Source: Stylophora pistillata
Taxonomy: Eukaryota
Direction of reading: 5' to 3'
NCBI RefSeq assembly: GCF_002571385.2
Contig: NW_019218126.1
Location: forward strand, 124,869 to 178,733
Length of the DNA stretch: 53,865 nucleotides
Shown here: positions 14,101 to 36,946 of the stretch, piece by piece
How the letters are laid out: every line of letters begins with the position of its first letter
How positions within the stretch are numbered: position 1 is the first letter of the stretch
Program-made: the position numbers and the translations under genes
Notes under the pieces: generated by a model
The model's database searches: none
Told to the model about the DNA's origin: nothing
What the model saw: only the letters and a program-made list of their open reading frames with translations

Positions 14101-14996
14101 ATCTCCATTTAGACCACTATTACTTTATAGGATGTATCCCATTCCCGATGTAAAACTAAGTAGAACTGAAATAGTATTCCGAAGTCTTGTACCGATAATT
14201 AAAATTCTATGAGAGTACACAGGTGTATTAGGAAGAGAAAAAAAAATATTAATTAGGTTTATGATTTCTGACAAAATGAAACTTACATGCAATGTATTTG
14301 TGTTCTTCATGCAGTGCACTCAAGTCACAAACATTTGTAAAAAACAGTGGGTTGCTTCCAGTTTCAAAACCAAATGGAATCCCATGGCTTGCCAACAAAC
14401 AAGCACAGTAAACTGTCAGGTAAAGAATTTTGTTTATCAAATGATTTGAATGTAACAATGGGTAATAATTGTTAGGCCCGTTTAAAATCCCTGCAAGTAT
14501 GCTGTAATATAAGCAGCTACTATGAATATCACATTGCAAAGTGCCAGTAACAATAGCAATAAGTTTCTGGTAGATGATGGACTGGCTCTTGTCATATAAT
14601 GAACCAGGGCAGTGCTGATGTGATTGAGAGATTCCAGTATGACATTGAATCATCTCAAGAGTGGAAAGCATTTTTCCTGCAAGAAACAGTGTGGTCTAAC
14701 AATGAATCTCTCCGTCCTCTTGCCATCCTCAACTCCAGTTGGTCACCTTTATCAGTCCATCACCCTACTGAGAATCTTATAGCCTTGATATCTTGGATCA
14801 AGGCTTCCAGCTGGTTTAAGATCATTATATACAATTGTATTTAACTGTAATTTACCACAGCCAAAGGGAATAATTTATTTCTGAATAATCCCTGAGGAAG
14901 TGGAGGGGATTACTTTCTACTAATTCATATGTTGAATAGGATACACTCTTTTTGTTAGGCACATTGAGATTAGAAATGCGCCCTATAAGCATCTAT

Positions 14997-15027
<31 letters not shown>

Positions 15028-18000
15028 TATTATTATTATTATTATTATTACCTCTGTAGCAAGCCACCCCAACAGGAGGAGGTGAAAAGAATAAAATACG
15101 TTTCTGCAGTAAAACAAATTTCCAGAGAACAAAAATTTGCTCCCCAAAGAACTTGATAAACTGAGGGAAACACCCAGCTGGATGTGTGATCTGTTGACAA
15201 AAACAAAGCATAAAAGGATTCATTAAATTCAGACAACAATCTAAAGTTGATGTTGAAGATGATGTAGTTGGGTATGTTGCAATATAAGTTACTGCATATG
15301 GTACTGTGCAAAATTATTAAGCTCAAAATTTAGCAAAATTGCTGAACTTCTGGGCTTTTCATCATAAAAGGATGAAATTTAGTTCACCTCAACAATTTAA
15401 AGAAAATCTGGCAAACTTCCAAGATGCCAATTGTTTCAGCTGACCTAAAACTCTTTAGAAGACAATTTAATGCCTCAAAAATTTCCACAAGAAATTAGTT
15501 TGAAGAAAGTTTTTTCCTTCAAATTTTCAAGCAAATATTCTCTCTGACAGTTTGCTCGATGAAAGTAAATTCTTCTTTGTCATGTGTTCAGCAAGAAAAT
15601 AAATTATTACACGACTCGGGCAGTCAGAGGGCCAATAACTAAAGTCAACCAATCAAAATGCTCTATTGCCGGTCAATATTCTCTCAGTATTGGGCCGGGC
15701 ACTGTCCCACATGGTCCCGAATGATACCGCACTTGTGTCCCTTTGAACTTCAGTCGTATAATTAATCTCTTATCAACCAAGCTTGCTTGGGACCATACTT
15801 GAAGAATATCGGCCCTCGTTTTTTTTTGTACGGACCTCAGGCCGATATTCTCCCAGTACGACCCTCGCGCTTGGTTAATAAGATATATATATTGCATGAT
15901 CTTGATTTTTTTCATGGAAAAATTTTAGAATCTTGATATCCACCTTGGTCTTTGTTTTCTCAGATGAGGAATTATTTCAAGGTTTTAAGCCATTCCAGGG
16001 GTAATTTGCTAAGTTCATTATATCAAAATATAGTGACACAACTCCTTCACAAAATTAAAATTTGGAAAAATTGTTTTAGGAATACCTGTAACACTGGTAT
16101 CTCCTCCAGTCCAGGAACCCTCTCAAGAGTTGGAGATGGAAAGTAATTATTTCTAAGCACACAGTTCTTATACCTATTGTAATAATTTTCAAGATCCTCA
16201 TAATGTCCAGGGTTTTCAAGCTGCCTCCTGGAAAATATTACATTTAATGAATACCATGAAAAGTGCTTTGATACATTTAAAATGAAAATTACAGTGGTGT
16301 AAAAATTAAAAATTTAAGGTATTCCTTCTTTAAACCAGTTAAATTTTGATTTCCCATTAACTAACAATCTTCAACAACAAGCTGAAACAAAGGAAAATCA
16401 AAATTAAATAAGGATAGGATTAAAAAGGATAAGGATTAAAAAAGGATAAAAAGGATAAGGATTAAAAAAGGATAAAATTTGAAGCACAACATTTTACAAT
16501 ATCTCTTAAAAAGAAAAATCTAATAAATTTATAATGAAAGATATTTCATTAATTTAAACATAGAAACAATCTACAGTACATAAAAATGCAGCTTTAGATA
16601 AAATAAATGATAACTAGAAACAAGCACGTCGCAAGGTTTTCAATTTTGCAAATGCATTTAATCCCATCTCCTATCTCTAAACCCACTTGCAGTTTTGTTA
16701 ACACACTAATTCCCAAGATCTCATCAGTAATTCTCCATACTGACTATCCCATATAATAATAATAATAATAATAAAGGTCTTTATTAAGAATTATTGTGCA
16801 AACAGACATGCAACAATTAACATGAATAGAATGAGTAAAGAAAAGGAAAAGGTATTAATTACTATTGAAAAGACATCTATTAATATAAAACTGATTTAAA
16901 ACAGCTTGTCTGAACCTTAGGTAAAATGTAATTATGCGACCTCCTTCTCAACTGCCGTGTTCTCTGGGGTGGTAAGAGATCGCTAAACACAGTGTTGATG
17001 GAAGAGATCCTTTGCCATAATTTCTTATCTCTATTACGATGGATATCTAAGATACTGTGCTGCTTTAAGCAGTAACCCAGCTTATAACACCTGGAAAAGA
17101 GCTTATCAATTCTACTTAAATATCTACAGTAACTATAAAAAGCGCACCCCCAGACCTCAATAGCATAATTAGGTAAAAACTGAAAGAATCAAACTTTTAA
17201 AAAGTAAGTCCAAATTCTCAATAGAGTAGCCATAATATTTACATATTCTTAAAATATACAACCTACTGCTAGCCTTACTAAGTAAATAATCAAATATGAG
17301 TGTCCCAATTAACTGGCACTTGCTCAAAGGTAACACCCAATAGTTTCAGTTATTCTCTCCTCCCTATGATCTTGAGTGGTTCAGGAGGCATCTTGGAAGT
17401 CTTCCTCATAAAAGAAGTTCTCATGTTTTCGTCAAGTTGACTTTCATGCAGTTCTTCTCAGACCATTCAATAAAGGATAGGACTTCCATTTCGGATTCAT
17501 CTAAGCCTACATTTGCCTCGATTGGTATAAACTAATAGTTATATCATCAGCAAATTTAACAAGAAGATTTTCTTATTAGTGTTAACAGCTTTGATATCAT
17601 TAATAAAAATAGAAAATAAAACCAGCCCCAGGACTGTAACTTGAGGAACACCCTATTTATAGAATATAATTCTTATGATGTAAGTTTGAAGAATTTGAAT
17701 TGGATTGACTAATAATCCCTTTATTCTCATCAATTGCTCGCTTGATTTTGTATTGATATTGTAAGGAGAAATTCTGTCCTGGTCACTCGTGGGAATGAAA
17801 GAGTTGAAAAAGAGACAAAAAAAAAAAAACAAGGTTACCTTACTTCCTCTTCAAGGAATGACATGTGTTCATGAAGAGATGTGTACTTGGAACAAAGAAT
17901 CCCTACTGATTTCATTCTAGCTCCTCTCTCGGCCACATTATCAACAGCCATACGCTCAAAACAACTCAACCCATAAAGACCATCTTTGGTTTTGAAGTAT

Positions 18001-20848
18001 CTGGTAGAGGAAAAAGATAGTTTGCCTTAAAAAGTTAAAAAAAAATGTTGGCATGTGGACCTAAGTATAAGGACTAGCTGATAAAATGATATTTTGATGA
18101 GTCCAAACCAAGAGATTCTCTATTGAGTCACGTTCAACAGCAGAATCTCTATGTTAGTGTTCCTGCATAGAAACAGTAAGTTAAAGTCAAGACTAAAATA
18201 TTAAAAAGAAGATCAATTAAACATCCACGGGTAATTCTATATTTTGATTTTTGAGACTTAAGTGTCTTCACAAGATTATTGTTTTGAAGAGATTGGAGGA
18301 TTCCCTTAGATTAACAAACTATTTGACCTACCGTATTTATTTGCCTATAAGCCAATCATGGCCATAAGCCGAGACCCTAAAAGTTTAAAAGCCATTGGAT
18401 TCGAATGAAAAATAAACCAAAAACACTCCGCTATAAGGTGAGACCAAAACTTTTGTTGAAATGTTGTAAAGCAGTTCACCACCCTTGTTAAGTGAGACAA
18501 ATAAACATAACCGTAGATTGTAATCAAACAAAAGTTAGAATTGTCTCTCTCCTGCGAAACACTTGCACCCAGCTGTAAAGGAGTTTATGAATAGAGGTAT
18601 TGGTTAAATCCCATTTAGATTTCAAAGGTAATCTATCATCACGCCAAAAGCTCATTATTCTTTGTACAACTTAGCCTTTAAATTAAAAGTTTTTGCTGAG
18701 GCAGAGGCCGTTGAGAAAAACTCTGAGATCGCCAAAGAATACTCAGCGATCCACAGTGAAATGGACTTGGGCAGAACTTCCAGAGGAGGTGGTGGAGAAA
18801 TCATTTAAAACATGCAGGATATGGAACACACTCAACGGTACAGAAGATGAAAGCATCTACACGGATGAAATGCCTGAACTTAAGCCACCGATGAGATGGC
18901 CTTGAGACCAACAGCAAAAAAGAAGACAACTAAACACTTCATTCTTGAAGTTATAATTAAACAAAACGGCCCTTTTAGGACCCACTACCTAAATAAAAGT
19001 AATTGACCAAAAAGAATTTTGCAGAAGACTAGTAATTTGTGTTTGTTGATGATAGTGTGGCTTGTAGCAGAATATACATTTGATTTATGGTTATTCTCCC
19101 ATAGGATTTTTTTTTTGTAGAAATACTCAGCTATAAGCCAAGCCCCCTGTCTTGTTAAAGTTTAACTAGTTCGCAGTTTCTTTTTCAGCAAAAATTGTTT
19201 GGCTAAGTAAACCCATTCTGAACACCACCTACTGATCAAACTCTGATAACTCTAATTCGAAACTACTCACTGACCCAGACGGACTGCCTGAACACTTGTC
19301 CAACTGAATGACTTACAAGCACATTTTCATCTTTTACGCAATGAAGCAAGAAATATTGCAAGTTGTGTCGTATGCTTACCAGTATTTCTCTTCAGATGAA
19401 AGCAAGGGAAGGAGGCACATGATGTTGGAACATACAGAGAATACTATGGATCTTTCTCTCTTGTACTTACATGAAGTCTTTTGTGATTGTATGTGAGCCA
19501 CTGGCCAAAGCTTTAAATTCCACACCAGTTAAATCCACTGATCTAGGATGCTTCCATTCAATTTCATTTCCTGAGTAAAATATGTATGTTTTATCTGACT
19601 CCAGTAACAAACTCAACATACTTTTAATTGTGGATTAAAATTTCAAATACAACCATGCACCACAAGGAAAGGGGGGCACCTATGGTTCTAACTGTTGAGA
19701 ATTCCAATTTTTTTGATGAAGGTAGGAAATTAAATGTAAACATTTTTCAAAGTCTTAGAGGTTCACGCTATGTTTTGGCCAGCTTTTTTTGCAGTATAAA
19801 ATGAAATTACAAGTGTTTTGAACCATGAAATAAGAACAGAGATGAAGGCTGTTAGAAAGAACAAGGCTTTGGAATAAAATGCTCTCAAATATCATTTCAA
19901 AAATTTAATGGAGAAATAGTGAAAAACTCAATAGCAGAGGAGAAAAGAACTAGCCTCAGTTGTTCCAAGGGTGGATAATACTACCTATTCACTGGATAAA
20001 TTGCTACCTGGTGTATAGAGCAGTACTGTTTAGTAATTCTTATCTGCTGTAGAGCGATTTCTCCATTCGATAGCGTTACCTGCCCCTGAAGAACTGGGCC
20101 AGAGCTCTCGTGTCATTCTTAATTACTTACATGTCGAAGTATACCCGTGCTAAAAGAAGTGAAAACCAAATTGAAATGGCAACCACTTTACACCTAAAGC
20201 TCTTAAGCAAAATAAAGTGTAAAAACCTTTTGATTGGATATTACTCTTGGTCATGGAAAGGGGAAAAGAAATGTGAACTCATCAAAAAAGTAACTGCTTG
20301 GAATTTACCCCAGGTTTAAAATAAAAAAAAAATGTGAAAATAATATATACTGTGTCAAGGGGCTTAAACCAGATCACGTATAAATGTAGTTGAGATGCTT
20401 CCTTGATAATTCAACAGGAAGGGTGAAAATTGAAAAAAGAAAGTGAAATGTGAATTGACTGGAAAATAAATAGATGTGTGTTTTCCCCACCAACCAACAT
20501 TAAAGATAATATGCAATTACAGGTTACAGTGTTATGTTCAACGTCTGCCTTATCATTTTGGAGATCCCACAAATAGAAAAGTTATGAATACTGAAAGAAA
20601 ACAACAAACTCGAGAGTGTTACCTCGTCTTGTATCAAAGTGCACGACGTAAACAGCGATTATCAACTCTGGAACAGTTCTTTCCTGTTCGTTTGAGGCCC
20701 TTTCAGAGGAAAGAAGGAAGGAAAAATTCCCACCAGACGTTGTGTGTTCATCTCCTGGGGGGAAAGATGAAAGTTCGCTTCTTGGGTCGTACGAAACATC
20801 GGGCACTTCCTCAAAATCAACAAGTACTCCTTCGTCTCCATCCGCCAT
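11110..20848 (-). CDS. DENND11: DENN domain protein 11 (LCHN/KIAA1147); exons 20623-20848, 19471-19570, 17839-18000, 16086-16227, 15052-15190, 14287-14412, 13257-13404, 12514-12570, 11110-11314
   Basis: Motifs [84 protein letters not shown]; all introns GT-AG with consistent phases. Confidence 0.92.
11615..11911. mobile_element. MITE
   Basis: TIRs AGGCCTGTCTCGATTGTGCT / AGCACAATCGGGACAGGCCC; no clear TSD. Confidence 0.7.
13631..13853. mobile_element. MITE, followed by a degenerate tRNA-derived SINE (~13853-14040)
   Basis: Ends GGGCCCAGTTGCTCGAAGG / GCTTTGAACAACCCGGCCC with internal AACCCAGGGTT palindromes; B-box-like GGTTCAAATCT follows. Confidence 0.6.
14995..15050. repeat. (ATT)n microsatellite abutting the DENND11 exon 5 donor
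   Basis: Direct reading. Confidence 0.9.
16751..17665 (-). mobile_element. Degenerate LINE reverse transcriptase fragment nested inside a MITE
   Basis: Minus-strand GVPQx[13 protein letters not shown] and VKFADDIT motifs with frameshifts; (TAA)n tail at left end; ATATAAT at both junctions. Confidence 0.75.
18329..19145 (+). mobile_element. Degenerate pogo/Tigger-like DNA transposon remnant
   Basis: TA-CCGTATTT terminus, repeated ATAAGCC motifs; ORF remnant [31 protein letters not shown] resembles a pogo transposase C-terminus. Confidence 0.55.
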
Positions 20849-21111
20849 AACTGAACATCTCCTTACTAGAGTAGGGTAAGTAGATGATGGCTCATGACGT
20901 GACTTCTGCTCTCACCGGAGCCTGTGGACTAGTTTCGGATGAATTCGATTTTAAAAATTTCATGATTTCTTCGTTCAGTCAGTTTTAAGAATTCTAGTCC
21001 ATTCCGTTCAGTAACCATTCAGTGTACATTAAACGCTTGTTTTATATATCAATTCACCGTCGAAAGAAAAGCAAAGGTATTTCGACTGTTATCAGGATCA
21101 AGATTATTGAA
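20849..21111. promoter_or_regulatory. Putative bidirectional promoter DENND11/SCLY
   Basis: Only 263 bp between divergent ATGs; contains a TGACGTG (CRE/UPRE-like) motif at ~20895. Confidence 0.65.
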
Positions 21112-24100
21112 ATGGACGTGAATGAGGAAAATGGAGTCGAGGAAAGCTCGTCTAAAATATATTTGGACTACAATGCCACAACTCCACTGGAACCATCTGT
21201 CCTGACAGCAATCCATAATGCTTTACGAGATGCTTGGGGAAATCCCAGTAGCTCTTATGCAGCAGGAAAGAAAGCAAGTCACGTGATCAAAGAAGCCCGT
21301 CTCTCAGTGGCTAACATGATTGGTGCATTGGAAAGTGACGTCATTTTCACATCAGGAGGTACTGAGGCCAACAACATGGTGATCCATTCAACACTGGAAT
21401 ACTTCTATGAGTTTCATAAAGAAAGGGGAAACCATATTTCTGATTTGAAACCCCATGTGATTACATCAAATCTTGAACATGATTCTATCCAGCTCCCTCT
21501 CCAGAATCTTGTAAAGCAAGGCAAGATAGAAGTGACATTTGTCCCAGCCTCTCAAGACTCTGGTGTAGTGACAGCAGAGGCAATATTGAACGAAGTTAGA
21601 CCAAGCACCTGTTTGGTGACTGTCATGATGGCAAATAATGAAACAGGGGTAATTCAGGTAACATTATCAATTTTATTTAGGATCTTTAAGTCATTGGAAG
21701 ATCCTGATTCAAGAAGTCAATAAAAGAAGCCTTGAGGCCAGAAGACCAACAATAACCAACAAAAATATTTTTCCACCGCAGCCTACAGGTTTATATGGCC
21801 ATGAAAAATGGAAAACAAACAAACAACTGAATACTTAATTGACCACTCCTTTAATTAATGGGGCTCTTAAGGGCCAAGGTGAAAATTATTTAACAATTAT
21901 TCCTATTTTTTTCTTTATTCTCACCACTTGTCTGCTATATATTGTATTGATATTGTAAGGAGAAATTCTGTCTGATACTCATGTTAGTTAAATGGTTAAG
22001 GTTCCTTTGAGCAGGAACTACCAGGGGTCAAAGTAATTCGCACAAATGTATCTGATTTAGGAATGACATCTTTTATTTTTCAGCCAATTGAAAACATTTC
22101 CAAGGCTATAAAGGGGTTAATGAAGAGTCGTCTATCTCAGGAAATGCCTAGGGTTCTTGTCCATACTGATGCAGCACAAGCCATTGGTAAAATTAAAGTG
22201 GATGTGAATGACCTGGGAGTGGAGTTCCTCACGGTAGTGGGACACAAGTTCTATGGACCTCGAATTGGTACAAAATTAGAAGTAATGGGATGAATAGATT
22301 AAAGCCCTTAAGTGACTTTTGCTACAGTACCATCAAATTCTCCTTTTATTCCACAAGGGGGGGATATGACAAACTTTTAAGGGAGAACCTTACAGTCTAT
22401 CAGAGTCACATAGGGCTTTTCAGCTGTTTTGAGCAAGATCATCTGAAAAATGTGCATGTGACAATCTCAAAAGGTAATCTGGGTATCTGGTAATTATGGA
22501 AATAAATTTCTTAAATCTGCAACACTTTGTCCTCATAGTGAAGAGTTCTCAGATTTCCTTGAAATCATGAGGTCAAGGAACTGCAACCCAAAAGACTACC
22601 CACAATACCTTTCAGGGTTGTTACATGCAATTGTTTATGCTTTTTTCTCCAACAGCCTTTCTCAAAACAGCTATATACCAGTTAGTATATTAGTTTTTTT
22701 GTAAAGAAATTTAAAATTGTTGAGGTTATGTACTACATACTGTGCTCTTAAAAACAGGGCATGACTAGTTAAATTGACTAAAACGCCTCCACAGGCATTG
22801 TTTGGTTTATTACAGTATCTCTCTCCCTTACTGGTGAGAGAGCATGTGACTAAACGATGGCTGCCAAGGGTACTACACAGTGCTATATTGACAGAAAATT
22901 TCCCTATTTTTCTACCTGAAAAGTTCAGTTGATATTCTCTATCCTCCATCTAGTGACTTTTGTAAAACGTTACTTAAATGAAATATTAAATTTCATGTGA
23001 AATAATATCTTATTGTAGTTAATTGGGAAAAAAAAACCTTCCTGAAAAAACCTGTTGGCAACAGTTGCCTGACTCTTAGGTGACAGCCAGTAGTCAGTCG
23101 CCCTATTTCAAAAAATAGCTCTGCATAGCAAAATTAAAAACTTGTTATTTTTTCCAATCAGGAGCCCTTTATGTTAGAAATCCAGTGAGAGACACCCCTA
23201 TACACCCCATGTTTTTCGGTGGAGGACAAGAAAGGAATTTTAGACCAGGAACAGAAAACACGGGCATGATTGCTGGATTAGGGCAGGCCTCTCAGCTGGT
23301 GGTGGAAAACCTGGACCAGTATCACGAAAACATGAAATTGGTTGGTATTACTACGTGTATGAAGTGTAATCTAGTACTACATTATCCAAAAACATCAAGG
23401 CTACTGAAACATTTTGGTATTCACAGGGTGGGCATTTAACCAAATAATGAGTAGCTGTGGGCCAGGCTCCTTTACTTGATAAGTCCGTAGTCATCATATC
23501 TCTACAACCAAATGGATTTTTTCAACTGTGAACCATTCAGTAAATTCATTGGCATGAAAATCAGAACACCTACAACATTTGCACCCCTGCTAACACATTT
23601 TGCAAAATTAATATAGATACTTTTTTTTTCATCGGTGAGAGTGAATGGTGCCAACTGATTGTTGTGTCAAAGTTGAGTTAAACCCTTTCACTCCTGAGAT
23701 CTAATTAGTAATTTTCCCTACTGTCTGCTATACAATTCTTATGATGTTAGTTTAGAGAATTTGGTATTGGGTCAACTAATAATCCCCTATTTGATATTTC
23801 TCTTTATTCTCATATTTTGTCTGCTTGATATCATGATGATAATGTAAGGAGAAATTCTGTCTTGGTCACTCATGGGAGGCAAAGGGTTTTAAGCAATTTT
23901 AAGGGCCATGAGAGAAAATAACACAAAAACATTAAACCTGCTTCATATACCAATTTTGATCTGGTGCCCTAACCAAAATGGGTATCATTTTCCCCAGATT
24001 TTTTATGACTGTGTGTCTTGTTTACATTTTGTGAGTGGCTGTTTGATTTGCACAGTTCACGTAGTTCACCACCCCCNNNNNNNNNNNNNNNNNNNNNNNN

Positions 24101-25064
24101 NNNNNNNNNNNNNNNNNNNNNNNNNNNNNNNNNNNNNNNNNNNNNNNNNNNNNNNNNNNNNNNNNNNNNNNNNNNNNNNNNNNNNNNNNNNNNNNNNNNN
24201 NNNNNNNNNNNNNNNNNNNNNNNNNNNNNNNNNNNNNNNNNNNNNNNNNNNNNNNNNNNNNNNNNNNNNNNNNNNNNNNNNNNNNNNNNNNNNNNNNNNN
24301 NNNNNNNNNNNNNNNNNNNNNNNNNNNNNNNNNNNNNNNNNNNNNNNNNNNNNNNNNNNNNNNNNNNNNNNNNNNNNNNNNNNNNNNNNNNNNNNNNNNN
24401 NNNNNNNNNNNNNNNNNNNNNNNNNNNNNNNNNNNNNNNNNNNNNNNNNNNNNNNNNNNNNNNNNNNNNNNNNNNNNNNNNNNNNNNNNNNNNNNNNNNN
24501 NNNNNNNNNNNNNNNNNNNNNNNNNNNNNNNNNNNNNNNNNNNNNNNNNNNNNNNNNNNNNNNNNNNNGGGTTGGGTGGGTATTTAGGGTGTAGAAACCT
24601 AGTAGGGGACTTAGAGTCCTATTGTTTCTACACCTACCTTACGGTAAATCTCTAAATCAATTCAAATCAAAGTTCACAGGGATATCTTCGTTACTCTTTT
24701 GTTTCAGATAAGAGATTATCTAGAGGTCAGACTGGAGGAGATCTTTGAGGACAAAATTCAGTTCAATGGAAAATTTGAGACAAGTGACCGAATACCCAAC
24801 ACATGCAATGTATCATTTATTGGTGTTGGACTAGAAGGAAGAAAAATCTTGGCTACTGTTAAAAGATTCCAAGCAAGTGTGGGTGCTGCATGTCACTCAG
24901 ATGTAGGTTCACGACCTTCTCCAATCTTAATTGCCATTGGAGTTCCTCCCAACATTGCTATGAATGCTCTGCGGCTGAGTGTAGGACGAGACACAACCAA
25001 GGAAGATATTGATGTGGTGGTGGAAGACCTGAAGGTCGCTATTGAATGTCTAAGGCACAAATAG
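21112..25064 (+). CDS. SCLY: Selenocysteine lyase; exons 21112-21657, 22084-22267, 23162-23340, 24708-25064
   Basis: [24 protein letters not shown] (SCLY-type Asp), HTDAAQ, PLP lysine [27 protein letters not shown], catalytic SVGAACHS. Confidence 0.93.
24077..24568. other. Assembly gap (N) in SCLY intron 3
   Basis: N run flanked by C/G tracts. Confidence 1.
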
Positions 25065-25630: not shown

Positions 25631-26694
25631 TACTTAGTACTTGATGAAACTCGTTCTTCAAGTCTAAAGCCACAGCTTTTATTTTGGCAACTCTGTTTTG
25701 AAACTGCATGATCACAAAATCAGTAACTAAGGTTTTTTTAAGTAGAACTTCCCGCTCTCAAGCAGGTTGAAAACTGACTTGAATATTAAAAAGGTCATTG
25801 TAAAGAACTTTTGTATAATCATGAAATATCAGGTATCAAAAATCAACAATTTGTACTTTCTTCAAACATCAGTCTAACACCTGAACTTAGAAATAATAAA
25901 AGTAAGAATCGATAAAAGTATACAGATATACATGGTACCGATCGTAGAAGTAGTATCTTGAAATCCCTAAACGAATTCCGAATCTTTTAACACTGTTCAC
26001 TAACTATGAAAAAAAAATTTGCAACACGAAAAAGTGATGCAGGAGCTTAGCTTCTTTAATTCCTAAACTGCTGATTTAATTTTACGCGAGAACTTATGAC
26101 TGTTTTAATTGATAGAAAATATATGCAAGTGTCTATAATTATAGTATTCCATCGGTATGGTTCGACCAAAACTGCAAATAAGAGTAATTTCCTGAAAAAG
26201 AAAGTTTCTAGATGCGAAATATATCAATATAACTATACTGTTTGTCTTTTGAATCACCTCATTTGAGTTTACTCATACATCTACACATCTATTTATACAT
26301 TTAGAGTTCTTCTGGCCATTTTCCGTTTGGATCATTCTTGTTCTTTCAATTTTCGAGGTCTTCTTTCCTGGTACAAAAGAAAATAACAACATGTAAAAAC
26401 CCGACAGAATTTTGCTAAGTCTAAGCAAAACAGCTATGCCAAGCACTATACGCTGGAAAACAAAATGGTTCCTGCTTGCATCAAGATTGTTTGAGAAACT
26501 CATCTGACATTCTATTTTTAACGCGTTACCGAGATCTTTAATTATTGTTCTGCGAAATCAAATAGTTATAAAGTTGCTTGTTATATTCAGGATCATAATT
26601 TACATGATAAATGGACATGATCATCAGCGAGAAGACAGAGCCAGCTGCCTATATTTAGTATAAACAAATGTCAAACACCTTGTCTGACTGATTC

Positions 26695-29600
26695 TTACCT
26701 CTGTTTGCCAAACTCCAACTTCACGTCATCTCCAATCAGCATAAATGAGGCCCAGTCACGCACCCTGGTGAAGCCGTTATTCCTCATCCACTTCATGGCC
26801 TGGTGAAGGGATTCACTGGCACTTTCTCCATCAACAAGGTGTTCGTAGAACTGACGCATGACCTGTTCTGTGGCTGCGTCTGGTATGGCCCACAGGGCAA
26901 CCAACACCGACCGAGCACAGGATCCTAAGAACGCTCGGGCGATTCCTATAACTCCCTCGGCCTTGATCTGTCCATTTGCACTGTGGCAACAACTGAGAAC
27001 TACCAGTTTAGCTCTGATTTTTACTCGTGAAATGTCTCCCATTGTCAACATATAGGTATGCTGGGGTGGAATGATGTCTGGAGTGTCGGGGGTAGGAATA
27101 GGAGAGAGAGCAATTTCTCCTCTTTCGGCGTCACCATGGGCTGCAAAATGTATCAGACTCGCTGAAGTTATCTGTTCAAGTACAGCTTGCTTCGTTGCTT
27201 TCTCCCCTACCAGAGGGGAAACGCCCACCAGTCTTCCAACCATCTATACTTCCTTTTCAGCACACGGTAATGGCAGCAGCCAGTTAACCTTGGGATTTCC
27301 CACCACCAGTGCACCAGTGTTGCTGTGATAGTCCAGTGGACTGTCTTGTATGAGCTTAAGTATCGTTAAAGAAGGAACAACGCGGATCCTATGACTCTCC
27401 GAGAAGTATGGGGCTCCTTTTTCTTGAAGAGCTGCAAATGGAACTTTGTACAAGCTTCTGTGTGGAACAATAATGACTTCAGGCTCTTCAAGAAAATCAT
27501 AGATTGGGGCAATAAAGATTTCGTAACACCGGGATAGACTTGAAATTTCCTCCTCGTTGTTGTCTTCCTCTATAAGTCGTGATGTTGCAGAGGTCCTCTC
27601 CTTTGATGAAATAGCTTGTGGTTCACGCATTTGCAAAGACCGATCTTCACACTCTTCCGTGGGCAAGCAACCAAAACTACGGAAACTGTCCGCCAAAACC
27701 TCAACCACAGAAGAATCTTTGGTGAATTTAGCCTTAACGACATTTTCCTCCACTGATATTTGTTTAAAATGGAGGGCTCCGCTTGTTTTCAAGATCCACA
27801 AATTCACCTTGCTATAAAAATAAGAAACATACAGGAAAGTACATCTGTTTTCCTTTCTCACAATGTTTTCAATGCCAAACCAAGAATGTTTCTTAGCACA
27901 AATGTGCGTTTCAATTGAGTACTTCTCTGCCATCAGGTCTGATAGGCCTGCAGCTCGCCCCAATTCTTCTACATATAGAGCATCATGCGGACTTCCGGTG
28001 ACACAAAGCGACCAGCTTAGCAACTGGATGGAAATTTCACCCCTCTCCTCCAAAAATGATGTCTTAAACTGATCATTAATCCCAAGAAAATTTCTCAGTT
28101 CTTCGAATTTAGTAATGTTCTGGTGTAGATACCAAAGGGCATCTTTAAGTTTGTTTTGATGTAAAAATAATATCGAGTAACCAAACAGGACTTGCAACTC
28201 AAGGTTACGTCCTTTAATAATCTTGGATATGTAAAGTGCCTTCTCTAAACATGCTTCCGCAACTTGGTAATCACCAAGCACCGTAAACAAATTTCCCAAG
28301 TTTGCGTAATCTGCTGCTTCTCCTTCTCTGTCGCCAATTTCAGTTCTAATGTGGAGCGCTTTTCTAAGATACTCTTTGGCCTCGACGTATTGACCAAGTG
28401 AAGAAAAGACAGTTGCTAAGACTCCGTAACATTCGGCTTCTTTCCTCCTGTTGCCACTATCGATCCTGATGACTAGCGCTTGTTTGAAATAGTCTTTAGC
28501 CTCAACGTTTTGCCCAAGCGACTTAAACACCTTTCCTAAGTCAGTGTAAGCTTCTGCTTCTCCGTCTCTGTCGCCAATATCAATACTGATGGCAAGGGCT
28601 CTCTGATTGTGCTCTTTCGCTTTGATGTACTCCCCAAGCCATTCGAAAACTGCTCCTAAGCTGCCGTAACATGATGCTTCTCCTTTTCTGTCCCCAACTT
28701 CAATACTGAAGGTAAGGGCTCTCTCCACATACTCTTTGGCCTTGACGCAGTCCCCAAGAAAGATAAAAACAGTTCCTAATTTTATGTAAGATGCTACCAC
28801 TCCCTTTCTGCAGCCAATTTTAGTTGTAAAGGCAAGAGATCTTTCAAGATACTCTTGAGCTTTGTCGTATTCCCCAAGCGACATAAACAGTGTTGCTAAG
28901 TTTATGTCGTCTGTTGCATCACCACTTCTGTCGCCGATCTCAGTTCTGATCACAAGCGCTTTTTCGAGATACTCTCTGGCTTTGACATACTCGCAAAGCG
29001 ACAGAGACATCTGTCCCATGTTTCCGTAACATGTTGCTTCTCCTTTTCTGTCGCCAATTTCAGTTGTAATGGCAAGAGCTTCTTCGAAACACCTTTTAGC
29101 CTCAACGTTTTGCCCGAGCGTGCTAAACACAGTTCCTAAGTTGATCAAATATAATGATTCCCCGTTTCTGTCGCCAATTTCTCTCTCTACGACTAAAGCT
29201 TTTTTGAAATACTCTTTAGCCTTGTCGTTTTTCCCGACCAAGTAAAAAACGGTTCCTAAGTTTCCATAATCTGCTGCTTTTCCTAGTCTGTCGCCAATTT
29301 CAGTTCTAATGGCAAGGGCTTTTTCGAGATACTTTTCAGCATCGACGTAATTCCCGAGCGATTTAAATACAACTCCTAAGTTTCCGTAACATGTCGCTTG
29401 CTCTTGTAGGTCGCCAATTTCGATTCTAATAGAAAGGGCTCTCTCGATATGCTCTTTCGCTCTGACATATTCCCCAAGTGACTCAAACACAGCTCCTAAG
29501 TTTACGTAAGATAACGCTTCTCCGTCTCTGTCGCAAATTTCAATTGCGATGGCAAGGGCTCTCTCGAAATACTTTTTCGCCTTGATGTATTCACCAAGTT

Positions 29601-30042
29601 TATAAAACATGGTTCCACATTTTCCACAGGCGTTTATCTCTCCTATTTTATCCCCCGTTTGTGCCCTTATGTTAACCGCTGATTTGTAAAGTTGTTTGGC
29701 TTCTTTAAACTTACGCTGAATCTCGCATATCTGCGCCAGAATCATAGTTACGACTCCCTTCATTAATAAGTCATCAGACTCGTGTCCGAGGACTAGGAAT
29801 ATGCGACAGCATCTCTCGCAATTTATGTAGTCAGAGATATGATGGTAAACGCAGCAAAGAACAGCGAAGATGTCATTGAGACGAAGTTTGACAGATTGCA
29901 AGTCGTTATCTTCTGAGTTGTAACTCATCTTAAACAAACATTCATAGCACAATTTGATGGCCTTTTCAACGCGGTCCGTGTTCAGCAAGAACAGGGCAAC
30001 AGAAAAAGCTATAAAGATTATTTCCACTCTTTTCTTTTCCAT
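26695..30042 (-). pseudogene. TPR-array plus CHAT (caspase-like) protease, TTC28-like, with one in-frame TAG at 27244-27246 (pseudogene, null allele or split gene)
   Basis: About 12 40-aa TPR repeats; CHAT motifs IIVPHRSLYKVPFAAL, LVVGNP, LPCAEKE*, IHFAAHG (His), VVLSCC (Cys), ARAFL, WASFMLIG; both ORFs in the same frame. Confidence 0.85.
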
Positions 30043-34928: not shown

Positions 34929-36910
34929 TCAACCAGGTGCCTGCATAGAAGCAGCGGTCATCAGTACTTGAGCATGTTCTTGAGGCAGTTCTGCAAGAAT
35001 GTTCTGGAATCTTTGTGGAGATTGTTGATGAATTTTTTGTATCACACTGACAAGTCCTGAACGAATACCTAAAAATACATATATAATCAGACAAATTTTC
35101 TTGGATCGAAGTTTCTTACAAGACTTTCATTGTTTATTTTAGAGAGGCTACTAAGAAAGAAGAATGAAAACTTCTTGTTTCTTTGATTTAACAATAAAAA
35201 TAGCGAATAATAAAAGAAAAGAAGTCAAAAGCAACTCAGAATATTCAACCATGCCCGTCAAATACATGTCATCATTGGAAAACACAAAGCTACTGGTCGC
35301 CCTAGCGACGGGGAGTAGATAAGTAAAATTGACTACGAAATCCATTAACATTTTTACATTACTAGTTTCTCCTGTGACCTAATATAACTGCACCCAGTAA
35401 ATCTTATGTAACTCACCGTCTTGTAGAGTGTCAGAGGGAAGAACTTGAGAAAAAACTGCGAGAAGTTGTGGTAAATATTGCCTTATGAGAGGATGCTGAT
35501 CACTAAACAGTTCTATAATGCATGAATAAACGGGATTGTTTTCTTCAAAATCTTCTTTCAAGGGAAGACACTGTAATAATCCTGGAAAAACCTGCAAAAG
35601 CAGAGGAAGACGATGTAGTCGGATGATCCTGCAGAGGCGGAATGCTGAGTGCATCTTACTGCTTAAGGCTCTTACCCTAGGTCATCCCCTTCCCCTCCCC
35701 CTGTTGGTTTTCCCTGTCATTGTGAGGCAATGCGAGAGTGAAAGGTCTTGCCCGTGAACACAACACAAAGACCCGTCCAGGGTGACAGGTATTGCCTCCC
35801 CATTCCTCTCTACAGAGGAAAATAAACTGAATGCAAGAAAAGTGAAGCAAATGATAACATTAACTCTGACCTTTTCCAGAGGAATAAAATTCCTATTTGC
35901 CATAACCATCCTACTCACAGCTCCACAAATGTTGTCCACCACTCGAGGAGGTTGATTTTGGGACAGGATCACAAACAGAGCCTCTAAAATGGTTGGATAA
36001 TGACTTGAAACTTGTTAAGAAAACACACAAAAATGCCGGATCCCCACAAATGATCTCCAGAAAAACAGTACAGAAACTTTATCGCTACGAGTCGTCTTTG
36101 AGAGGCCGCGAAATACCGGACTTCCAGTACCTCTTCAGGGCGAAAGTTAAATTTAAATGTATTCATATTACGCCTTGAAAAAAAAGGTGAGCATTGTGAC
36201 TGAATAATTCAACACGGAAGGATACGGTGTGATCAGGTCTCCTCCATAGAAAGCCATAATACCAAGGCCATAGATTGCGTTACTTCTCACTTCATCATCC
36301 TCGTCTTTGAGTGACGTCATAAAAACAGGGAAGAGATGCTGTACAAAGGGAACTATGGCGTGGCCCATGGCAAGCATTACCTATCAAACAACATGTATGG
36401 CGTTACATTAGCCGCATGTGTACCACAAAATGTTGCTCTCTCTCCTTGTCTAACACTTCTGGAAGTATTACAGTCTATGATTTGACATTACAAGTAACAT
36501 TCGACTGTGAAAACTGATCGCCCTGAAAAGGACTGCCTTTAGTTGTAGTGACTGACGTTTCGACAACCTTGGCGGAAGTCATCATCAGAGCCGAGAGAAC
36601 TGTCGTTAGACGAGTGTTATAAATCCAGTTTGTAAAACTGTTGGTCCGTTTTTCCGTGATGTTATTGGCTGTAAGATTTAAGTAAGTGGGTAGTGATTGG
36701 TCAACCAAAGGCTTTCTGTGGGCGGTAGCAAACATTTGTCCCCCTAACAGAACAAATCAAACAGGTGAATAAATAAACGAAATCCACAGAAACTTACCTC
36801 TGAGATTGTTCCAATGGCAAATGATTTATCGGATACCGGGCAAGATTTTCTCTGCGAGAAGGAATACACTAAGTTGTTTGATGCTTCAAAATAATAATAA
36901 TAATAATAAC

Positions 36911-36946
<36 letters not shown>

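What the first reader, a model, noticed from the sequence alone, without database searches (positions are those of the whole stretch)
28210..29655. 120-nt-period TPR array with conserved scaffold and hypervariable positions linked to a caspase-like effector
Seen: about 12 exact 40-aa units with DNA-level similarity (recurring CTGTCGCCAATTTC on + strand). The scaffold GDRxGEAxxYxNLGxVFxxLG is fixed while x positions differ in nearly every unit (LS/V/A/ES, TC/G/V/KS, AD/G/T/YL, LY/I/T/ST, SC/G/A/EW, EA/T/K/KS). Known: TPR-CHAT proteases act in bacterial defence (Csx29 in type III-E CRISPR), and fungal NLRs diversify through similar repeat arrays. Inference: a repeat-shuffling innate immune sensor-protease family in this animal, with unknown substrate.
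Basis: partly seen in the sequence, partly recalled or inferred. Interest (0 to 1): 0.7.

Follow-up and report, generated by a model that had tools for sequence, protein, structure and literature searches.

The report
Coral repeat-sensor protease under diversifying selection
This is one transcribed copy of a known, hugely multiplied coral gene family that joins a spiral of twelve 40-residue repeats to a predicted caspase-like protease; across sister genes the repeat positions predicted to form the binding groove change faster than neutral, which likely reflects an immune-sensor role whose trigger and target are untested.

Summary
Observation confirmed: twelve gap-free 40-aa TPR units (28216-29655, minus strand, 55-75% alike in DNA) precede a CHAT domain with its His/Cys pair. 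The gene belongs to the published coral 'TTC28-like' TPR-CHAT expansion (150 matches scored in this genome); this scan has noted the family before on other DNA. It is probably an assembly error: contigs of 7 of 8 runs read a sense codon there, and one RNA run holds a spliced transcript. Family-wide, the idea gains support: in 146 close repeat pairs from 60 paralogs, unit positions 8, 15 and 18 (TPR 2, 9, 12, the concave face) show dN/dS about 2-3, the CHAT half 0.25; the catalytic pair is kept in 59 of 61 loci; close paralogs differ up to 2-3-fold in repeat number. This copy is a slow member: no recent unit duplication, no repeat-number variant seen, and none of its units is in those pairs. 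Protease activity, ligand, substrate and immune role are untested. Nine paper searches showed no site-wise selection test of the family.

The parts
26695..30042 (-). Main coding stretch of a TTC28-like TPR-CHAT gene (about 1115 codons, no intron between the first Met and codon 1115)
   Evidence: RNA contigs of X8, X10, X12 cover parts of it
29656..30042 (-). N-terminal 129 residues, degenerate helical repeats shared with paralogs
   Evidence: tblastn hits in paralog loci; weak TPR-like Pfam hits
28216..29655 (-). Array of 12 exact 40-aa TPR units; helix A = unit positions 3-20, helix B = 23-40; predicted superhelix like LGN
28576..28935 (-). Units 7-9: polymorphism hotspot in this species (18 of 24 listed TPR variants) and within the part not collinear with the probable orthologs
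27535..28215 (-). Capping helices and linker between repeats and protease domain
   Evidence: fold of the same region of paralog L033; matches Csx29 and separase
26728..27534 (-). CHAT (caspase-like) domain
   Evidence: Pfam PF12770 on both halves, E 1e-6 and 2e-37
27244..27246 (-). In-frame TAG in the window sequence; probably a mis-written heterozygous site, not a real stop
   Evidence: 7 of 8 runs read Glu or Lys codons, 1 undetermined; no stop and mostly Glu in 120 of 120 homologs
27136..27138 (-). Predicted catalytic His (HFAAHG motif)
26986..26988 (-). Predicted catalytic Cys (second C of LSCCHS)
   Evidence: aligned with a solved CHAT protein
26368..26698 (-). 331-nt GT-AG intron removed in RNA run X8
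   Evidence: loose end of an X8 contig matches 26331-26360; zero X8 depth over 26400-26667 where the DNA-type runs have cover
26346..26367 (-). Last coding exon (7 codons and stop) of the spliced form

Best explanation
This is a transcribed member of the coral-expanded TPR-CHAT (TTC28-like) family that likely works as a one-chain sensor-protease: a predicted TPR superhelix would bind a foreign or altered protein in its concave groove and thereby switch on a predicted, normally silent caspase-like CHAT domain, which would cut a shared host target in an immune or non-self response. Shown: architecture, family size, a spliced transcript, kept His/Cys pair, purifying selection on CHAT, dN/dS above 1 at helix-A positions 8, 15, 18 (less firmly 4, 19, 37) across paralogs, and gain, loss and reordering of central units between close paralogs while the end units stay in register. 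Inferred: unequal crossing-over as the cause of that turnover, ligand binding in the groove, autoinhibition and activation (by analogy with Csx29, separase and the fungal TPR-CHAT Q2L-6), the immune role and any substrate. This copy is an older, slowly turning-over member, and the stop in the window is most likely an assembly error.
For: 150 of 281 candidates scored, all at E < 1e-48. In 146 disjoint close pairs (292 of 694 clean units): the six positions taken beforehand from PMC1261162 have dN/dS 1.56 (95% 1.32-1.89), 1.89 with ts/tv correction; TPR signature positions 0.43-0.52. Against a neutral expectation from 4-fold sites with CpG context, positions 4, 8, 15, 18, 37 show 1.7-2.1 times the expected amino-acid changes (p <= 2e-5). 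A pairwise codon-likelihood model gives 2.6, 2.3, 2.9 at 8, 15, 18. CHAT dN/dS 0.25 in 27 pairs; His and Cys both kept in 59 of 61 loci. Repeat dS is not below CHAT dS in 11 of 15 paralog pairs, and hot-site dN exceeds repeat dS in 13 of 15. L036/L038 have 8 and 17 units at CHAT dS 0.23; L050/L059 9 and 25 at 0.21; 30 of 55 loci hold units at least 90% alike. Probable Pocillopora orthologs are intact, have 11 or 13 units, and 29 of 77 variable TPR sites fall on the six groove positions against 11.6 expected. Fold matches: LGN; Csx29 and separase.
Against: No unit of this copy entered the 146 pairs (best match elsewhere 78%), so the selection result is about the family. Among this copy's listed variants TPR pN/pS is about 1.06 (19 N, 5 S) and 0.77 outside (11 N, 4 S), only 5 of 19 replacements hit positions 4, 8, 9, 11, 15, 18, 19, and one DNA contig carries a nonsense allele in unit 3: relaxed constraint fits as well. 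In 25 pairs from intact loci, position 8 is not significant (p 0.11) and 37 is not above 1. One ortholog cluster shows no groove enrichment (3 of 22). Groove variability is general to TPRs (PMC1261162). No repeat-number variant at this locus in 8 runs. The only gasdermin match in the genome lies on another contig, unlike the fungal clusters. The assembly has gaps and letter errors, so unit counts and orders in paralogs may be wrong in places. No induction or activity data.
Confidence: 0.6

Rival explanations
1. Relaxed birth-and-death: a repeat-rich gene family that multiplies by recombination with little function per copy; groove positions vary because solvent-exposed TPR positions always do.
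For: 32 of 735 units carry stops and many loci have frameshifts; PMC12314368 discusses neutral hitchhiking of duplications; overall repeat dN/dS 0.73-0.89; this copy's polymorphism pN/pS is near 1.
Against: dN/dS clearly above 1, not equal to 1, at three to six positions by three methods; helix B as a whole is at 0.60-0.73; CHAT at 0.25 with the catalytic pair kept in 59 of 61.
Confidence: 0.15
2. Diversified substrate-targeting proteases or scaffolds for host-internal roles (cell division as for human TTC28, development, symbiont control or colony allorecognition), the repeats choosing the substrate rather than sensing a pathogen.
For: The closest solved repeat folds are LGN-type polarity scaffolds and the protease fold also matches separase; PMC9145168 suggests a cell-cycle role; no link to a death effector gene in the window.
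Against: Recurrent replacement at the predicted groove with an unchanged protease, in at least 150 copies, is hard to explain by conserved host partners; allorecognition or symbiont control would still be non-self sensing.
Confidence: 0.15
3. This particular copy is a decaying pseudogene: the stop is real or null alleles are common, and its repeats are frozen remnants.
For: TAG in the window; a nonsense allele in unit 3 in run X3; pN/pS near 1; contigs cannot show that the stop allele is absent.
Against: 7 of 8 runs read sense codons at the TAG; 6 of 7 sites where the window shows a third letter fit one character-conversion rule; spliced RNA; intact probable orthologs in Pocillopora.
Confidence: 0.1

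Closest known systems
Coral TPR-CHAT domain-containing proteins / 'TTC28-like' expansion (PMC12314368, PMC9145168, PMC6208414)
   Same: Same architecture; hundreds of copies per coral genome, variable TPR length, tandem duplication; database homologs carry this name.
   Different: The passages read report counts, lengths and copy-number variation, not site-wise selection, unit turnover or catalytic residues. This copy is alone in its 54-kb window, among housekeeping-type genes.
Human TTC28 / TPRBK
   Same: TPR array followed by one CHAT domain (PMC12314368).
   Different: 1-2 copies in most animals, role in cytokinesis (PMC12314368). Its sequence was not retrieved here (one search did not return it), so orthology and its catalytic residues were not tested.
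Csx29 (TPR-CHAT of type III-E CRISPR, Craspase)
   Same: TPR plus CHAT with His/Cys pair; best fold match of the linker-CHAT model (E 8e-11, TM 0.59); autoinhibited until activated through its TPR-linker side (PMC9729208).
   Different: 10-14% identity; Csx29 is switched by Cas7-11 and RNA and cuts Csx30; no such partner is expected in a coral; here the repeat array is long and diversified.
Fungal TPR-CHAT Q2L-6 with gasdermin Q1-6 (PMC8851545)
   Same: N-terminal TPRs and C-terminal CHAT in a eukaryote, shown there to process a gasdermin.
   Different: The fungal genes cluster with their gasdermin; here one gasdermin match lies on another contig against at least 150 proteases.
Fungal NLRs with high-internal-conservation repeats (HET-E type; PMC13449251)
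   Same: A few hypervariable positions per repeat under diversifying selection; gain, loss and exchange of repeats.
   Different: No NACHT/NB-ARC domain here; this copy's units are 55-75% alike, below the 80-100% given for those repeats, though some paralogs come closer (means up to 84%).
LGN/GPSM2/Pins TPR domain
   Same: Best structural match of the repeat array (E 5e-14, up to 29% identity).
   Different: Conserved polarity scaffold without a protease domain (established knowledge).

Membership tests
Coral TPR-CHAT (TTC28-like) family | N-terminal TPR array (PF13424/PF13176) followed by one CHAT domain (PF12770) | tested here: met
Coral TPR-CHAT (TTC28-like) family | Close homology to annotated coral members; many paralogs in the genome | tested here: met
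Coral TPR-CHAT (TTC28-like) family | Intact reading frame through CHAT | tested here: inconclusive
   TAG in the window; sense codons in contigs of 7 of 8 runs, 1 undetermined
CHAT / caspase-hemoglobinase proteases (clan CD) | His-Gly and Cys catalytic pair in the expected motifs and a caspase-like fold | tested here: met
   (fold from paralog L033)
CHAT / caspase-hemoglobinase proteases (clan CD) | Proteolytic activity | not testable with these tools
   needs an assay
Csx29 / type III-E CRISPR | Encoded with and bound to Cas7-11, substrate Csx30 | tested here: not met
   neighbours are intron-containing eukaryotic genes; 10-14% identity
NLR (STAND) immune receptors with shuffling repeats | Central NACHT or NB-ARC NTPase | tested here: not met
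   no such Pfam match in either half
NLR (STAND) immune receptors with shuffling repeats | High internal conservation of repeats (80-100%) | tested here: not met
   this copy 55-75%; 30 of 55 loci have some units at 90% or more
NLR (STAND) immune receptors with shuffling repeats | A few positions per repeat under diversifying selection | tested here: met
   family level only
NLR (STAND) immune receptors with shuffling repeats | Repeat-number polymorphism between individuals at one locus | tested here: inconclusive
   none seen in contigs of 8 runs; probable orthologs have 11 or 13 units, two 11-unit singletons nearly identical to a 13-unit form
Canonical TTC28 orthologs | One-to-one orthology with human TTC28 | not tested
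   no canonical TTC28 returned; PMC9145168 places the expanded family apart from the conserved canonical gene

The most novel reading that the evidence does not exclude
Corals carry an NTPase-free receptor arsenal of hundreds of one-chain sensor-proteases whose specificity is rewritten by repeat shuffling plus positive selection on three to five groove residues per repeat, all feeding one conserved caspase-like output such as gasdermin cleavage: an animal counterpart of fungal and bacterial TPR-CHAT death pathways.
Probability: 0.35. Interest if true: 0.8.

Novelty: new member of a known kind. Interest (0 to 1): 0.45.

Why it matters
The coral TPR-CHAT expansion is one of the largest and most haplotype-variable gene families in reef corals and has no assigned function. 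Evidence that the same few groove positions are repeatedly replaced while the protease stays conserved turns a catalogue entry into a testable immune-receptor hypothesis with named residues to swap. If true it would add a receptor class to animal innate immunity and bear on coral disease resistance and symbiont tolerance. Separately, the false stop warns that pseudogene calls in this assembly can be artefacts of heterozygous sites.

Tried and rejected
Gene-conversion donors for the clustered variants in units 7-11: none among 735 units matched both the alternative letters and the flanks. Apparent repeat-skipping joints (X12, 'goes back 600', 'skips 496') are artefacts of my cut at 29100: the letters between match the next unit; the joints have short sides and unknown inserts and were not counted. 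CpG hypermutation as the cause of hot sites: only 38 of 395 changed bases. Constrained synonymous sites in repeats inflating dN/dS: not seen in 11 of 15 pairs. Spanning-tree pairs (the script stopped early) gave the same direction (1.65, 1.47) but used positions partly chosen from the data, so the disjoint-pair test with positions from the literature replaced it. Whether paralog stops are also letter errors: unresolved (36 stop codons, 14 multi-base, mixed spectrum). Bacterial origin: the prokaryote scan gave 7 loci of 19 stretches; the five closest (36-54%) are on short contigs of binned metagenomes and are likely coral contamination (not tested), the two others 40% over 116 and 25% over 260 residues; origin not resolved. 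Canonical TTC28 was not retrieved. Runs X21-X24 hold next to none of the words and were not used. The careful tree did not finish; the quick tree is cited. Paper searches with no hit. No complex was predicted: no candidate partner is known.

Full report
Observation. The stretch lies in a minus-strand reading frame from 30042 to 26695. Pfam gives TPR_12 at E 7e-84 and CHAT in both parts of the C-terminus. A single-sequence model of the array (mean pLDDT 83.5) shows two helices per unit, at unit positions about 3-20 and 23-40, and matches LGN/Pins best. Pfam TPR_1 position 1 falls on unit position 7 (residue 216), so unit position minus 6 is the TPR number. The concave-face assignment below rests on that register and on PMC1261162 (passages read: TPR positions 2, 5, 6, 9, 12, 13 contact ligand and are the most variable in TPRs generally); it was not measured on the model, whose coordinates I could not access.

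The stop codon. Codon 933 (27246-27244) is TAG, upstream of both catalytic residues. Contigs of five runs read a Glu codon there (X1, X8, X10, X12, X13) and two a Lys codon (X3, X7); the eighth (X16) covers the site 15 letters from a contig end and is undetermined. These are 8 of the 20 runs that hold the stretch; contigs show presence, not absence. All 120 homologs have a residue there, 108 of them Glu. At 7 of the 39 variable sites that I listed, the runs show two alleles and the window a third letter; 6 of the 7 equal what a simple two-bit conversion of the IUPAC ambiguity letter gives (that some assembly programs convert letters this way is recalled, not checked). The stop is therefore most likely a mis-written heterozygous site. 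An X8 (polyA RNA) contig leaves the stretch near 26699 and continues with 26331-26360, across a 331-nt GT-AG intron that has no X8 cover but is covered in the three other runs: a spliced transcript exists. One X3 contig carries a nonsense allele in unit 3 (29400).

Family. The C-terminal CHAT half finds 281 candidates in the genome, of which 150 were scored, all at E below 1e-48. A paralog protein is recorded as 'tetratricopeptide repeat protein 28' of Stylophora pistillata, and 4440 of 7990 scored candidates match, the named top ones from corals. The family is published: PMC12314368 (passages and part 1 of 2 of section 15) counts 276 and 304 genes in two Acropora, 6-362 across corals, with variable TPR length and haplotype copy-number differences; PMC9145168 and PMC6208414 (passages) note the expansion and guess at cell-cycle or apoptotic roles. 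I fetched 60 of the other 149 scored loci: nearly all of the top 40 and 20 more from lower ranks, favouring longer contigs and longer open frames, so the sample leans to this clade and to intact genes. They and the window gave 735 units; 41 with a stop or N were dropped, leaving 694.

Selection. In 146 disjoint pairs of units differing by at most 15% (292 of 694 units; 101 pairs within a locus), the six literature positions (unit 8, 11, 12, 15, 18, 19) have dN/dS 1.56 (bootstrap 1.32-1.89), or 1.89 with kappa 2.5; TPR signature positions 0.43-0.52; helix B 0.60-0.73. Site by site, 4, 8, 15, 18 and 37 exceed 1 in counts and against a neutral expectation from 4-fold sites with CpG context (1.7-2.1 times, p at most 2e-5). 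A pairwise codon-likelihood model gives 8: 2.6, 15: 2.3, 18: 2.9, 19: 2.3, 37: 1.8, 30: 1.8, 4: 1.6, with 30 of 40 positions below 1; in the 25 pairs from 19 intact loci 4, 15 and 18 stay above 1 at p < 0.05, 8 has p 0.11 and 37 is not above 1. The CHAT half has dN/dS 0.25 in 27 paralog pairs, and His and Cys are both kept in 59 of 61 loci (loci chosen by likeness to this CHAT). Repeat dS is not lower than CHAT dS in 11 of 15 paralog pairs, so low repeat dS does not explain the result. These are home-made pairwise tests that ignore recombination within units, on an assembly with gaps and letter errors.

Shuffling. 30 of 55 loci with two or more units hold a pair at 90% identity or more. Close paralogs differ widely in unit number (L036/L038 8 and 17, both without N, CHAT dS 0.23; L050/L059 9 and 25; L033/L039 10 and 20), and best matches are usually in register at the ends but scattered in the middle, as unequal crossing-over would leave them (inference). 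Exchange between genes is only hinted at: 30 of 1711 locus pairs share a unit at 90% or more, one pair identical at CHAT dS 0.14.

This copy. Its units have no twin above 75% inside the gene or 78% in the 60 loci, so none entered the 146 pairs. Over all 66 of its own unit pairs pN is 0.63 at the five hot positions, pS 0.47, core pN 0.16 (near saturation, pairs not independent). Contigs of 8 runs tile the array without a length change. Its listed variants cluster in units 7-9 (18 of 24, p 4e-7; the first table hid 18 rows, of which the second recovered some), without clear groove enrichment and with pN/pS about 1. A quick tree groups it (99% SH-aLRT) with six proteins whose clusters include Pocillopora meandrina and P. 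damicornis records; synteny was not checked. They are intact, have 11 or 13 units, keep units 1-4 and the last two roughly in register with this gene and differ in the middle. Among 17 full-length 1076-aa sequences, 29 of 77 variable TPR sites fall on the six groove positions (11.6 expected); among 9 sequences of 1155 aa, 3 of 22 (3.3 expected).

Mechanism. A model of the linker-CHAT part of intact paralog L033 (pLDDT 82, pTM 0.87) matches Csx29 and separase. Csx29 is autoinhibited and opened by a signal passed through its TPR-linker side (PMC9729208, passages); a fungal TPR-CHAT processes a gasdermin (PMC8851545, passages); fungal NLR repeats combine shuffling with a few hypervariable positions (PMC13449251, passages). 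A conserved protease behind a groove under repeated replacement, in 150 or more copies, is best read as a sensor-protease arsenal responding to changing non-self proteins (0.6). Binding, activation, substrate and immune role are inferred. One gasdermin match exists in the genome, on another contig; that coral gasdermin is cut by caspase-3 is recalled, not read (one search gave only listings).

Novelty. The family and its expansion are known. Searches found no site-wise selection or unit-turnover analysis of it, but the library is partial and supplements were not read. Earlier notes of this scan describe the same family on other DNA, one with the same groove idea. Verdict: a real feature, a new member of a known kind, with useful new evidence at family level; interest 0.45.

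Noticed in passing
window 26862, 27246, 27886, 28465, 28710, 29916, 30034: Sites where public runs show two alleles and the window a third letter; 6 of 7 fit one conversion rule for ambiguity letters. Probably genome-wide, so stops and odd residues in this assembly need checking against reads.
   Followed up: partly
window 7466-9250 (+): Single long ORF (594 aa) with a helical N-terminal part and a C-terminal NHL-like propeller region (one weak Pfam NHL hit); looks like another intron-free coral family.
   Followed up: partly
window 20998-25064 (+): Multi-exon aminotransferase class V gene, by recall selenocysteine lyase-like, tail to tail with the TPR-CHAT gene.
   Followed up: partly
window 14993-20911 (-): Exons of a DENND11-like gene (Pfam hit on one exon).
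   Followed up: partly
window 35379-46347 (-): Exons of an importin-beta-family gene (importin-4-like by recall; only a sub-threshold Pfam hit).
   Followed up: partly
window 48664-49437 (+): hAT transposase C-terminal remnant next to an assembly gap.
   Followed up: partly
window 3912-4643 (-): An exon with a cysteine-rich secreted-type motif recalling phospholipase A2-like proteins of cnidarians (recalled; no Pfam hit).
   Followed up: no
window 52831-53181 (-): Exon resembling the C-terminus of MCM4 (recalled; no Pfam hit).
   Followed up: no
window 27416 and 29400: A 3-base insertion allele in CHAT (runs X7, X8, X16) and a nonsense allele in TPR unit 3 (run X3).
   Followed up: partly
L092-L096: Coral-type TPR-CHAT sequences (36-54% identity) inside bacterial metagenome bins; likely host contamination of those bins.
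   Followed up: no
L056 and L057: Two paralogs with almost identical CHAT halves (dS 0.016) but repeat units only 75-88% alike, as if the protease half was copied between them or the repeats were replaced very fast.
   Followed up: partly
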